64,000 bases of DNA, from positions 30,976,001-31,040,000 of the forward strand of contig CP068257.2 of assembly GCA_009914755.4 (NCBI GenBank), read 5' to 3'. Source of the stretch: the human T2T-CHM13v2.0 reference genome, Homo sapiens. This document shows, in pieces, positions 31,990 to 35,598 of the stretch. Position numbers: made by a program. Position 1 is the first letter of the stretch. The number at the start of each line of letters is the position of its first letter.

Positions 31990-34900
31990 TCATATATTTA
32001 AGTTTAAAAAAATAAACAAGAAACCATGTACTTATATTCCAAGTGTCTATTTCACGGTCCAGTTTTAAGGGTGAATAGCTACATTCAAGTGTTTTTACCT
32101 ATATTATCTTTCCTTGTTGTTCCAGGGCTTTTGGGTGCTTTGAAGCAAGAAGGGAAAAAAAAATTAGTTGTAAGTTAACAATTAAGCAATATTGCATAAC
32201 ATCAGCTTGCTGTTCTGCTTCATTACCAGCAGAAATGGGGGCATGAGATGGTAACAAAACAAAGCACTTTGCTTTGTATAATGATGAAGGGTATTATCAG
32301 TCCTGAATGAAATACTCCAAAAGAGAGAAAAATTACAATATTTAGATAGACCTTTATGGGAGACAAGTGGTGACTTTAGTTTGATATCTCACTCATGGGA
32401 CCACTTTTAGGGTGGCATTCCCCATAGAACTCTCTCTTGTGAACCCTGAAAACATACAGTCAGCTGTGTGAATGGTCACAAGATGCGGCACTGCTGCCCC
32501 TTAGAGTCTGGCAGACAAGTGGCTTCTGAGCAACAGACAGGACTGCATTTGTCAAATTACACAAGAGGCTCCTAGTAGCAATACTTTAGGGCTTCACGCT
32601 GTAGATGTCACTGTGGATAAGGTTATCTTATGATGAGATCTTTCGGATTTCTATAACAAAATCCCATCATTAAGACAGAAGACAGGCATATGTTATTACC
32701 AAATATCTGCCTTATGGAAGACAGTGTTAAAAATATGTTCAAACTCATTAGAAAGGTAGCTGAAGGATAAAATGAAATAAATTACTCTTGGAGCCAAAAG
32801 GAGTAGGAGTGACTATCAAGGGCAGCATCTTAAATAAACTCTCCTTTTTGTAAAGAAATTCAAGTACAATTGTTATAAGAAATACATCAGCCTTTTAATA
32901 ACTAAAATCATAACAAATGGCCTCTAGTCTTAAAGGTCTTTTAAACAAATCTGGCTCAGTGCTAATCTATAAAATAGCTATGTTATCTGAAATCAACTAC
33001 AAAATACTATATTCTTGGATCTGAATTAATAGGGTTTAATTATAATCATTAATTTTTAAAACTTCAGATTAGTAAAGTACATTTCTAAATATTTTACTTA
33101 TTCTGAAAAGAATTTTGAAGACATTCTTAAACAGTAATTTCACAACCTGGGCATATATAAACTATATATGAAACAGAGTACAAACAACATTAAGGATCTC
33201 AGGGAAATTAAATGGATATCCATTAGAAACTATAGGTGACATAGAATGAAGAGAGGAAAAAATACAAGGTATACATAAGGAGGGGAAAGAGAAGTTTACA
33301 GCTGGACCAAGAAAAGATTTAGTATGCCTGCAAACACTGCGGGGTGGGGAGGTGGGGCGCTGACACTGAGAAATAAAATGAGAGAACCACTTCTATAATG
33401 CAAGAGTCTTGTTACCTTCCATCTCTCTCCTAGCTACCCCAGGACTGGGAGGGGCTCCAATACCTTTTTAGAGAAAGAACAGAAACTATATATTGTTCAG
33501 GGCCCACAGCACAGAATGAAAGGCAGGCACACAAGACAATTTCCATAGTAAACTCACTTTTGCAAAAAGGCTCTTTTATTGCTTTAAATTTCTTCAAAGA
33601 TATCAATACAAACCAAAGTGACTTTAGATGCTTGGCCCAAATCTGAATCCTCCCTTTACTCAAACAGAAGAGTAGAAACAGGATGACAGTTTTCTTTTTA
33701 TGTATGCAATTACTACCAGTAGGGAATTTAAAAAATATGTTTAATGAAGACCTTTGCTTTAAAAATCATCTTACTCCTTATATCCAGAGCAAGTAAAAAC
33801 TCTGATATTTGATAGTCAAAAGGAAAGAAATCATAAATTTCTATGAGACTACGTAAGTCTTTTGAAGTTAGTTTTTGATGCATTAATTTTAAAAACTCTA
33901 ATGTACTATAATGACGTAAAGGAATTATTGTTTATAGGATGAAAAAACATGTTGCAAACACTACTTACAAAAGAATTATGAAGGGGAGCAATTTTTAAAA
34001 TTAAGACAGATTTCACTGTAATCCACTGGCTTGCCTAACTTTTGACAGATTCATTTTAAATTTATTTTCTACAGGATGTTTTCCTAATTAAAGCAGAAGA
34101 TAAGCAAAAATTATCATGGAAATTTAAATAAAAGCAGGAGCTTGAAAAGGGAAAAATTAAATGTTTTCTATAAAAGCAGGAGCTTGAAAAGGGAAAAATT
34201 AAATGTTTTCTGTAGGTCAATGGAGAAATGATCACTTAGCTGTATTCGGCAGAAGCTGTAATGCTGAAATAATTTAGCTATTCTTATCACACGCAGTCAT
34301 TAAGATCTACACACAGGCAAAGTCAGTCTGTAGTAAGACCTGAATTGCTCAGCCATGTCACTAGGCAAGCTACCATAGAAACAGACCAGGCTACACATGC
34401 ACAGTGAGCCTTAGTAACACTGGATTTGTAAAAGTTCTTCTGAGGAATTGTGAAAACTCATCTCATCTTTTCTTGAGATTTAGATTAAATAAACTTGTCA
34501 AATGTATAACTCCAACTGAGCTCTGTGAGTTTTCATGTAAACCAAATAAACTATACTTCAAACAAAAAGTGACCCTTTGTGAATAAAAATTTCCTTATGA
34601 AGAAAGGAAAAGAAAATCATACAGTTCTTTGCTAATCCAAAAGCTTTTCCACTAGAAAATAAATGTATCACTAATCAGATACTTGGGAAATGTTCTGTAT
34701 TTACTGTACCTGAATGACTTTTAAAATTAATATAACTTTTGGGTATTAAATCTTTGTAAATGAATCGACCACATTTATTAAAAAAAAAATTAGGCCTGAT
34801 GAACAATCCCAGCCTACCTGGGAAATGAAAGCCTTTATTAGTTTTATTTGTGGATTAGTTTTAAACTAGAATGTCATTCATTTTGACTTTTATCAAACAA

Positions 34901-35598
34901 ATCTAAAATGTCTTTCAGGTGTAAAACATTAATGAACCACGATTCACACATGCTAACAAATGTAAATGGTTACCTCCAAATTCCTTTCTAGTGGGTGCAG
35001 GACTCCTAGCCCCTTATAGTTCATAAGAAAATAGGCAGCAGAAAGGAAATGACATTAAATACAGAAGTGAAATGTCAAAGATTGCTATAGTATCCATGAC
35101 ATCAAGTATCATGCAGGAATTACATATTATCTACGTACTACAAAAACTATTATTCAATGCATATGCTTATAATTGAAGTAACAGCACTATATTTAATTTA
35201 AAAGAACATTAAACAAATACATACAATTGTACATTAATACGTATGCTCTCCAGTTTTATTATACTTTTACAGAAATTAGTACATTTTAATTATTTTATGC
35301 TTATAAATCATCCAGAAATGAGGATTTTGAAAAAAATTAAACCTAATTTTACCTAAGAACAGTTTACATGCCTAACTAGATCAAATTAGCAAAAACAAAA
35401 TAAACCTCTCTGGCTGGCTGGTGAGAAGGCAGCTAAAGGCAGCTGTGAAAACACCTTAGAGGAATCTACTCTGCAAACACTCTACCTTGTCTGTTGCGCC
35501 TACCATGTTCTTTAGAGAAAAGCTAAGAAATAGCAATAATGATAGAAAAAACAGTAAAATCCAGAAGCTAGAGATTGGAAAACATGCAAAACATTTTA

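What the first reader, a model, noticed from the sequence alone, without database searches (positions are those of the whole stretch)
32099..35012. Two 39-nt frame-neutral microexons in the SYNJ1 proline-rich domain
The exons at 32099-32137 ((A)PKSPGTTRKDNI(G)) and 34974-35012 ((G)ARSPAPTRKEF(G)) both have AG/GT splice sites and the same phase (1 to 1). Each is exactly 39 nt, so either can be skipped without changing the frame. The flanking exons are constitutive-looking PRD exons of 48, 70 and 144 nt. Symmetric 13-codon cassettes in a disordered, SH3-ligand-rich region are classic neuronal microexon candidates. Their inclusion would add PxxP, Ser-Pro and Thr-Pro phosphosites.
Basis: inference. 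Interest (0 to 1): 0.5.

Follow-up and report, generated by a model that had tools for sequence, protein, structure and literature searches.

The report
Known alternative 39-nt SYNJ1 exons

Summary
The window holds the 3' half of human SYNJ1 on the minus strand. Both 39-nt segments (35012-34974, 32137-32099) are genuine exons: AG/GT borders, phase 1 to 1, one open frame. The spliced product is 277/277 identical to a human cDNA protein.

They are alternative cassettes, and this is published. A mouse table lists two 39-nt Synj1 exons 2.7 kb apart. PSI is 83% and 71% in wild type and 58% and 56% in R6/1 Huntington mice. Both are flagged as RBFOX CLIP targets and as validated in the Rbfox triple knockout. 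The RT-PCR primers bracket exactly this block. De novo transcripts from two mammals join the 144-nt exon directly to the 71-nt exon. RefSeq isoforms of stingray and beaver use the units combinatorially.

Corrections:
- The 48-nt exon between them is also alternative; a human cDNA skips it.
- The downstream exon is 71 nt, not 70.
- There are no Thr-Pro sites.
- At 39 nt they exceed the usual microexon limit of 30 nt or less.
- The known SRRM4-dependent Synj1 exon lies elsewhere.

Added here: the three exons are paralogues, each encoding S-P-x3-R-[KR]-[DE]. Exon 32137-32099 carries the published Cdk5 site S1144.

Verdict: real, largely correctly read, already known.

The parts
34974..35012 (-). 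E39a: 39-nt alternative cassette exon, phase 1 to 1, encodes (G)ARSPAPTRKEFG(G). First S-P-x3-R-K-E unit.
   Evidence: AG/GT borders and a single open frame. Same length and splice sites in whale and bird, 92% and 90% nt identity. Orthologue of one of the two 39-nt mouse Synj1 cassettes with published PSI. Absent from stingray X2/X4/X5/X6 and beaver X3/X4/X5 isoforms and from transcripts L001 and L002.
33416..33463 (-). E48: 48-nt alternative cassette exon, phase 1 to 1, encodes (G)IGAPPSPGVARREME(A). Second S-P-x3-R-R-E unit.
   Evidence: Skipped in human cDNA B4DIP0, chimp, sheep and Rousettus proteins. Included in transcript L006. 94% and 90% nt identity to whale and bird, with about 25 nt of conserved intron directly upstream.
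32099..32137 (-). E39b: 39-nt alternative cassette exon, phase 1 to 1, encodes (A)PKSPGTTRKDNI(G). Third S-P-x3-R-K-D unit. Carries the published Cdk5 site S1144.
   Evidence: The Cdk5 substrate peptide 'EAPKSPGTTRKD (S1144)' is in PMC4640224 Table 2. 95% and 77% nt identity to whale and bird. Absent from stingray X3/X4/X6, beaver X4/X5 and transcripts L001 and L002. Orthologue of a 39-nt mouse cassette with published PSI.
35652..35795 (-). E144: upstream 144-nt exon, phase 1 to 1, encodes ...[29 protein letters not shown]. It holds the PKRPPPPR stretch reported as the endophilin SH3 site (prior knowledge, Cestra 1999). Its donor is spliced to E39a, E48, E39b or E71.
   Evidence: Junctions E144 to E71 in L001 and L002. 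Forward RT-PCR primer site of the published assay.
31900..31970 (-). E71: downstream 71-nt exon, phase 1 to 0, encodes (G)[23 protein letters not shown]. It is the acceptor used when the block is skipped.
   Evidence: 71 nt, not 70. The reverse RT-PCR primer maps to window 31967-31946.
35582..35588 (-). UGCAUGU (RBFOX-type motif) 65 nt downstream of the E144 donor, in the intron upstream of E39a.
   Evidence: Present at +65, +70 and +67 in human, whale and bird. Alignment in bird is only positional. GCAUG is not enriched in the region overall: 6 seen against 4.5 +/- 1.9 expected.
35035..35040 (-). UGCUGC 23-28 nt upstream of the E39a acceptor.
   Evidence: Conserved in human, whale and bird. 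Its function was not tested.
32145..32147 (-). UGC at position -10 of the E39b acceptor, inside the conserved block (c/a)tgcttcaaag|.
   Evidence: Conserved in human, whale and bird. Its function was not tested.

Best explanation
The two 39-nt segments are true exons of human SYNJ1 (synaptojanin 1) on the minus strand. They are frame-preserving alternative cassette exons.

With the 48-nt exon between them they form an array of three paralogous mini-exons (39/48/39 nt, all phase 1 to 1). The array dates back at least to the common ancestor of jawed vertebrates. Each exon encodes one copy of the module [A/P]-x-S-P-x-x-x-R-[K/R]-[D/E]. The array is inserted directly after the exon that holds the PKRPPPPR endophilin-SH3 site.

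The spliceosome can join the E144 donor to any of the three mini-exons or straight to E71, so proteins carry zero to three modules. In mouse brain most transcripts include the 39-nt exons. Inclusion falls in Huntington's disease tissue and responds to RBFOX1.

The module in E39b contains Ser1144. This is the site that Cdk5 phosphorylates to inhibit endophilin binding and 5-phosphatase activity.

Shown:
- exon identity, splice sites and phases;
- conservation and paralogy;
- existence of skipped and included forms;
- the S1144 peptide lies in E39b.

Taken from the literature:
- PSI values, RBFOX dependence and the Cdk5 effect.

Inferred:
- splicing of the array sets how many proline-directed phospho-switch modules sit next to the endophilin site;
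- forms with no mini-exons, so far seen with the 170-kDa tail, would escape Cdk5/calcineurin control.
For: - Exon anatomy and open frame.
- Identity to the human cDNA protein, 277/277.
- Published alternative splicing. Two 39-nt mouse Synj1 exons lie 2684 nt apart, against 2875 nt in the window. PSI is 83.2 and 71.1 in wild type and 58.2 and 55.5 in R6/1. Both are flagged as RBFOX CLIP targets and TKO-validated. 'Synj1 (contiguous exons)' show decreased inclusion, attenuated by RBFOX1 overexpression. The primers map to E144 and E71. The orthologous event was reported in human HD striatum through VastDB.
- Transcript evidence. L001 and L002 join E144 to E71 at the exact splice sites. L006 carries E48-E39b-E71. 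The human cDNA lacks E48 only.
- Combinatorial isoforms in stingray X1-X6 and beaver X1/X3/X4/X5.
- Conservation in whale, bird and carp.
- Paralogy. The motif SP...R[KR][DE] occurs exactly 3 times in six frames of 64 kb, against 0.14 expected. It occurs only in these units in full-length proteins. 3'-anchored nucleotide identity is 20-22 of 39, against 10 +/- 2.6 by chance, P<0.001. SP always sits 10 codons before the exon end.
- S1144 peptide EAPKSPGTTRKD. Cdk5 effect.
- Weak, conserved splice signals (A at -3 of all three acceptors in human and whale, no G at +5 of the donors).
Against: - The functional step (number of modules tunes phospho-regulation of endophilin binding) is inference. 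No experiment on isoforms lacking the exons was found.
- The sign of the RBFOX effect is unclear. RT-PCR suggests RBFOX1 raises inclusion, but the table lists 'direction -1' with no definition.
- The only conserved UGCAUG lies upstream of E39a, a position usually linked with repression (established RBFOX RNA map).
- GCAUG is not enriched in the region.
- Several of the 'combinatorial' forms are computed gene models. These can miss tiny exons, for example the wolverine model P0091.
- For human itself I saw only the E48-skipped cDNA directly. Skipping of the 39-nt exons in human rests on the literature statement.
- The link between zero mini-exons and the 170-kDa tail rests on very few real transcripts.
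Confidence: 0.85

Rival explanations
1. The exons belong to the SRRM4/nSR100-dependent neuronal microexon programme. UGC motifs just upstream of the 3' splice sites would recruit SRRM4 to force inclusion in neurons.
For: - UGC or UGCUGC motifs lie 10-28 nt upstream of E39a and E39b and are conserved in human, whale and bird.
- The acceptors are weak (aag|), as is typical of SRRM4-dependent exons.
- Synj1 is a known SRRM4 target gene.
Against: - The documented SRRM4-dependent Synj1 exon lies between VTRTIQNNF and SIAFKNQT, in the Sac1/5-phosphatase linker.
- 39 nt exceeds the usual limit of 27-30 nt.
- The published regulator of these exons is RBFOX.
- A UGC within 40 nt is expected about every second intron end by chance, and conservation there may only reflect the polypyrimidine or branch region.
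- SRRM4 dependence of these exons was not found in any paper I could read.
Confidence: 0.15
2. The exons are constitutive, and the forms lacking them are artefacts: aligners or gene predictors missing tiny exons, or mis-assemblies.
For: - Some models clearly mis-handle this region. Many bird 'SYNJ1 partial' models run into introns.
- The wolverine E39a-only form is an unreviewed gene model.
Against: - De novo assembled transcripts from two species carry a clean E144|E71 junction at the canonical sites, and assembly does not depend on exon alignment.
- RT-PCR across the block shows the event.
- vast-tools PSI values are intermediate and differ between genotypes.
- A cloned human cDNA lacks E48.
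- Six stingray isoforms differ by exactly 13, 16 and 13 aa.
Confidence: 0.03
3. As duplicated neighbours of equal length and phase, the two 39-nt exons are mutually exclusive alternatives: one or the other, never both.
For: They are paralogues of identical length and phase. This is the classic origin of mutually exclusive exon pairs.
Against: - Both are present together in human, chimp, sheep and bat proteins and in the all-three forms.
- Both are absent together in L001, L002, P0206, beaver X4/X5 and stingray X6.
- Both have PSI above 70% in mouse brain, which is impossible for an exclusive pair.
Confidence: 0.02
4. The cassettes are real. But they act mainly as spacers or extra SH3/adaptor ligands that change the length or valency of the disordered PRD, and not as phospho-switch modules. 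The S1144 link would then be incidental.
For: - E48 (PPSP) and E39b (PKSP) add PxxP motifs.
- The region is proline-rich and binds several SH3 proteins.
- Only one of the three serines has a published kinase.
Against: - The invariant positions across 450 My and across all three paralogues are S-P and the basic-acidic R-[KR]-[DE] at +5 to +7, not the prolines of a PxxP core.
- This fits a kinase or phosphatase recognition module better than an SH3 ligand.
- Phosphorylation of S1144 is reported to inhibit endophilin binding and phosphatase activity.
Confidence: 0.25

Closest known systems
RBFOX-regulated neuronal cassette exons (Weyn-Vanhentenryck 2014 network, Jacko 2018 Rbfox triple knockout; Synj1 entries re-listed in Mol Med 2026, PMC13067610)
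   Same: The two 39-nt Synj1 exons are listed there by coordinate and length, with CLIP support and triple-knockout validation. They are in-frame cassettes in a synaptic gene. A positionally conserved UGCAUG lies in the adjacent intron.
   Different: Nothing essential: this is the same event. The direction of regulation and the responsible motif are not resolved. GCAUG is not enriched in the human region.
SRRM4-dependent neuronal microexons (3-27 nt), including the known Synj1 linker exon
   Same: Short, symmetric, highly conserved, with weak acceptors and nearby UGC motifs. They lie in a disordered interaction region of an endocytic protein. Inclusion is linked to a neuronal splicing factor.
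   Different: 39 nt is above the usual size limit. No SRRM4 dependence is on record for these exons. The documented SRRM4 target exon of Synj1 is in the Sac1/5-phosphatase linker.
SYNJ1 145-kDa / 170-kDa isoform switch (Ramjaun and McPherson 1996)
   Same: Same gene and same domain. It is also produced by a tiny cassette: the 24-nt stop-codon exon at window 24891-24868.
   Different: That event changes the C-terminus by introducing a stop. The 39/48/39 array changes an internal segment without touching the frame. Whether the two events are coupled is unknown.
Dephosphin phospho-boxes and the dynamin-1 xA/xB splice variants (Cdk5/calcineurin-controlled PRD interactions)
   Same: Proline-directed serines in a PRD whose phosphorylation blocks binding of SH3 partners (endophilin, syndapin). 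Alternative splicing changes which regulated binding motifs are present.
   Different: In SYNJ1 the regulated motif is repeated as three separate duplicated exons that can be used combinatorially. The functional consequence of exon choice has not been tested.
Tandem exon duplications, often giving mutually exclusive exons
   Same: Adjacent exons of the same phase and nearly the same length with significant sequence similarity.
   Different: They are not mutually exclusive. All combinations from zero to three occur.

Membership tests
Frame-preserving alternative cassette exon | Canonical AG...GT borders and a length divisible by three | tested here: met
   39 nt each, ag|...|gt, phase 1 to 1.
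Frame-preserving alternative cassette exon | Transcripts both with and without the exon exist | tested here: met
   With: P0001, P0203, L006. Without: L001, L002, P0206, beaver X4/X5, stingray X2-X6. Published PSI 71-83% in wild-type mouse.
Neuronal microexon (SRRM4 programme) | Length of 27 nt or less (30 nt or less in some tools) | tested here: not met
   39 nt. Definitions quoted in PMC7821500 and PMC13067610. Looser definitions of 51 nt or less (prior knowledge, Li et al. 2015) would include them.
Neuronal microexon (SRRM4 programme) | Inclusion depends on SRRM4/SRRM3 | not testable with these tools
   No such data were found. The reported SRRM4 target exon of Synj1 lies elsewhere.
Neuronal microexon (SRRM4 programme) | UGC-containing enhancer close to the 3' splice site | tested here: inconclusive
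   UGC at -10 (E39b) and UGCUGC at -28 to -23 (E39a), conserved to bird. Such short motifs are common by chance.
RBFOX direct target exon | (U)GCAUG in the flanking introns, conserved | tested here: inconclusive
   UGCAUGU at +65, +70 and +67 downstream of E144 in human, whale and bird. The GCAUG at +21 of E39a is not conserved. There is no overall enrichment.
RBFOX direct target exon | CLIP binding and a splicing change on Rbfox loss or gain | not testable with these tools
   Reported as 'yes' for both 39-nt exons. RBFOX1 overexpression attenuates the loss of inclusion.
Tandem exon duplication | Adjacent exons of the same phase and similar length, with sequence similarity above chance | tested here: met
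   All phase 1 to 1. 20-22 of 39 nt identical against 10 +/- 2.6, P<0.001. Shared motif 3 times against 0.14 expected, in the same register from the exon 3' end.
Cdk5 site S1144 of synaptojanin 1 | Sequence context EAPKSPGTTRKD | tested here: met
   The peptide printed in PMC4640224 Table 2 equals the last residue of E48 plus E39b. The primary paper (Lee 2004) could not be read.
LRRK2 site T1205 of synaptojanin 1 | The residue lies in one of the mini-exons | tested here: inconclusive
   Reviews give T1205 with T1173 or T1131. By my numbering, T1205 of the 1612-aa isoform would be the first Thr of SPGTTRK. That numbering comes from memory, and the primary paper is not held.

The most novel reading that the evidence does not exclude
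The three duplicated mini-exons form a splicing-tunable array of zero to three proline-directed phospho-switch modules placed right after the endophilin-binding site. Exon choice, set by RBFOX and possibly coupled to the 24-nt stop-codon exon that makes the neuronal 145-kDa form, would then decide whether SYNJ1 is under Cdk5/calcineurin (and perhaps LRRK2) control. Non-neuronal forms with no modules, and the forms that increase in Huntington's disease, would lack Ser1144 and escape activity-dependent regulation. I found no paper that links the alternative exons to the S1144 site or that describes them as paralogues.
Probability: 0.4. Interest if true: 0.45.

Novelty: already known. Interest (0 to 1): 0.2.

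Why it matters
SYNJ1 is a Parkinson's disease (PARK20), epilepsy and Down-syndrome dosage gene. Its recruitment by endophilin is central to synaptic vesicle recycling. [quoted passage not shown]

The useful addition is a link between two separate literatures. The alternatively spliced exon E39b is the one that carries the Cdk5 site S1144, and its two neighbours are ancient paralogues with the same motif. If exon choice sets the phospho-regulation of endophilin binding, this would explain why the units have kept their length, phase and motif for more than 400 million years. It would also give a concrete functional reading of the Huntington's disease mis-splicing event.

Tried and rejected
- **Memory probe.** All conclusions were re-derived from the window and database proteins.
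- **Word-index searches with the PRD alone.** Results were poor. Poly-proline words swamped the first search and the index was sparse for the second. A long query with catalytic domains worked, but human full-length isoforms were never returned. So the RefSeq a-d composition could not be read directly. Length arithmetic fits isoform c lacking E48 (16 aa), while isoform d is 47 aa short, not 42. That arithmetic is only a guess.
- **GCAUG enrichment.** Not significant. The GCAUG 21 nt downstream of E39a is human-specific.
- **Stingray genomic DNA.** Not retrievable because the gene is longer than 100 kb.
- **Primary papers.** Cdk5 (Lee 2004), LRRK2 (Pan 2017) and the RBFOX network (Weyn-Vanhentenryck 2014) are not held. 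The meaning of 'direction -1' and the exact LRRK2 residues stay open.
- **Endophilin site.** A literature search for PKRPPPPR found nothing, so the endophilin-site statement is prior knowledge.
- **Other SYNJ1 papers.** The microexon papers mentioning SYNJ1 and the PD-mutation splicing preprint gave nothing on these exons. The Elorza 2021 supplements are not held.
- **Rejected readings.** Mutually exclusive exons, constitutive exons and annotation artefact (see the rival explanations).
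Full report
**What is in the window.** The gene reads on the minus strand. A tblastn probe, used only to locate exons, lit up a chain of 100%-identical exon hits from about aa 512 of synaptojanin 1 (window about 63539) to the stop codon (about 20999). I then defined the proline-rich-domain (PRD) exons from the sequence itself:

| Exon | Window coordinates (minus strand) |
|---|---|
| E211 | 36609-36399 |
| E144 | 35795-35652 |
| E39a | 35012-34974 |
| E48 | 33463-33416 |
| E39b | 32137-32099 |
| E71 | 31970-31900 |
| E109 | 29783-29675 |
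| E218 | 29129-28912 |
| last exon | from 21808 |

All have AG/GT borders and the spliced frame is open throughout. E144, E39a, E48 and E39b are all phase 1 to 1. With E48 removed, the product is 277/277 identical to the human cDNA protein B4DIP0, so the window is human or hominine SYNJ1.

**Check of the observation.** Both 39-nt segments are exactly as described: ag|CACCC...ATATAG|gt encoding (A)PKSPGTTRKDNI(G), and ag|GGGCT...TTGGAG|gt encoding (G)ARSPAPTRKEFG(G). The bare pattern 'AG, 39 nt open, GT' occurs 387 times in the window. The evidence that these two are real is therefore their place in the SYNJ1 reading frame and their conservation.
- In whale and bird genomic loci the three small exons have identical lengths (39/48/39) and identical splice-site positions. 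Nucleotide identity is 92-95% to whale and 77-90% to bird, higher than for the neighbouring E144 at 79% and 65%.
- Carp has two 39-nt phase-1 exons at the same place.
- Minor corrections: the downstream exon is 71 nt, not 70. Neither exon has Thr-Pro. Only E39b has a PxxP.

**Are they alternative?** Yes, and this is already published.
- The supplementary table of PMC13067610 lists two mouse Synj1 exons of 39 nt, at chr16:90947015-90947053 and 90949699-90949737. They are 2684 nt apart, against 2875 nt between the two exons here.
- Their PSI is 83.2 and 71.1 in wild type and 58.2 and 55.5 in R6/1 Huntington mice. Both are marked as RBFOX CLIP targets and as validated in the Rbfox triple knockout.
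- The text speaks of decreased inclusion of 'Synj1 (contiguous exons)', attenuated by RBFOX1 overexpression.
- The RT-PCR primers translate to QTLEPK (in E144) and NQPSPQ (start of E71). The reverse primer matches a rodent transcript exactly, and its human counterpart lies at window 31967-31946. The amplicon therefore brackets exactly E39a, E48 and E39b.
- The earlier paper states that the orthologous VastDB event is also altered in human HD striatum.

**Independent evidence gathered here.**
- Two de novo assembled transcript contigs from different non-human mammals join E144 directly to E71 at the canonical sites.
- Another transcript carries E48-E39b-E71.
- The human cDNA and the chimp, sheep and fruit-bat proteins lack only E48.
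- RefSeq isoforms of the stingray Hypanus sabinus use the units in six combinations: all three, 39a+48, 48+39b, 48 only, 39b only, none. Their lengths are 1603, 1590, 1590, 1577, 1574 and 1561 aa.
- Beaver isoforms give all three, 39b only and none.
- Some other combinations come from unreviewed gene models, which may simply miss tiny exons.

- The 48-nt exon is not constitutive. It is the third member of the block.
- The exons are not microexons by the common definition of 30 nt or less. The paper that reports them names only Macf1 and Cadps as its microexons.
- The SRRM4-dependent Synj1 exon known from the literature lies in the Sac1/5-phosphatase linker, judged from its primers.
- UGC motifs do lie close to the 3' splice sites of E39a (UGCUGC at -28 to -23) and E39b (-10), and they are conserved to bird. 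This is only a hint.
- A UGCAUGU sits 65-70 nt downstream of E144 in human, whale and bird. GCAUG is not enriched overall.
- The sign of RBFOX action is unresolved. RT-PCR suggests activation, while the table says 'direction -1' without defining the column.
- All three acceptors have the disfavoured A at -3 in human and whale, and all three donors lack G at +5. This fits regulated exons (established splice-site consensus).

**Anatomy and likely mechanism.** The three exons are paralogues.
- The motif S-P-x3-R-[KR]-[DE] occurs exactly three times in all six frames of the 64-kb window, against 0.14 expected: once per mini-exon.
- It occurs nowhere else in full-length SYNJ1 of monkey, beaver or stingray.
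- The SP always lies ten codons before the exon's 3' end.
- Ungapped, 3'-anchored nucleotide identity between the exons is 20-22 of 39, against 10 +/- 2.6 by chance.
- The array follows E144, which encodes [10 protein letters not shown]... The PKRPPPPR stretch is the endophilin SH3 site according to Cestra et al. 1999 (prior knowledge, not verifiable here).
- A published table of Cdk5 substrates gives the synaptojanin site as 'EAPKSPGTTRKD (S1144)', effect 'inhibits interaction with endophilin 1'. That peptide is E39b preceded by the last residue of E48. A review adds that S1144 phosphorylation inhibits 5-phosphatase activity.
- LRRK2 site T1205 may also fall in E39b, but I could not verify the numbering.

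My best-supported reading is that alternative splicing sets how many phospho-acceptor modules, from zero to three, lie next to the endophilin site. Forms lacking E39b cannot be regulated through S1144. This last step is inference.

[quoted passage not shown] Two points did not appear in the papers I could search. One is that the three exons are an ancient duplicated array. The other is that the alternative exon E39b is the one carrying the Cdk5 site. This is a modest synthesis and not a discovery.

**Side note.** The only exon of 27 nt or less in this part of the gene is the 24-nt cassette at 24891-24868. It carries the stop codon of the 145-kDa isoform.

Noticed in passing
window 24868-24891 (minus strand): The exon specific to the 145-kDa neuronal isoform is a 24-nt cassette, ag|CAGGAGCAACCATCAGGGTAACAG|gt, encoding QEQPSG-stop. 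In transcript L006 it sits between E218 and the last exon. It is the only exon of 27 nt or less in this part of SYNJ1. Its acceptor (ctttctcaaag|CA) resembles that of E39b (cttgcttcaaag|CA).
   Followed up: partly
window about 29540-29661 (minus strand), just downstream of E109: An Alu-like sequence (ggaggctgaggcaggaggatcacttgagccc...) begins only 14 nt after the 5' splice site of the 109-nt exon.
   Followed up: no
window about 1501-3500: CpG-island-like stretch (GC 0.55-0.66, CpG observed/expected 0.64-0.85) downstream of the SYNJ1 3' end. It is probably the promoter of the neighbouring gene.
   Followed up: no
L001 about 889-931; L002 about 1523-1560: Both transcripts that skip the three mini-exons also read through the donor of E218 into the intron (P0003 ...QPQVRPVDEQ, P0004 ...QLQVSVTTEG). 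This is either incompletely spliced RNA or an unannotated short 3' end.
   Followed up: no
Literature: PMC8370404 primer list versus PMC13067610 primer table: The primer pair CCCAGACTCTAGAGCCCAAGA / GCTTGAGGGGAAGGCTGATTAC is printed under 'Vps13c' in the 2021 paper. By sequence it is Synj1 (E144 and E71), and the 2026 paper labels it Synj1. The 2021 primer list appears to be shifted by one gene.
   Followed up: yes
Proteins P0095, P0097, P0100, P0104, P0116, P0192 (bird 'SYNJ1 protein, partial'): Many bird gene models run from E39b into intron sequence (...KDNLGNTDTCFIQSRTK...) instead of splicing to the next exon. The region with the tiny exons is often mis-annotated.
   Followed up: no
window 63348-63539 and upstream: The published SRRM4-dependent Synj1 exon lies between VTRTIQNNF and SIAFKNQT. 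The exon encoding SIAFKNQT is at 63539-63348, so that microexon lies at the very edge of the window or outside it. I did not look for it.
   Followed up: no
L005 2780-2818 and 3561-3599 (carp): This carp SYNJ1 copy has two 39-nt phase-1 mini-exons (GQSPTPVRKDSA and QKSPALARADAA) but no obvious 48-nt counterpart. The second has lost the R-[KR]-[DE] part of the motif.
   Followed up: partly
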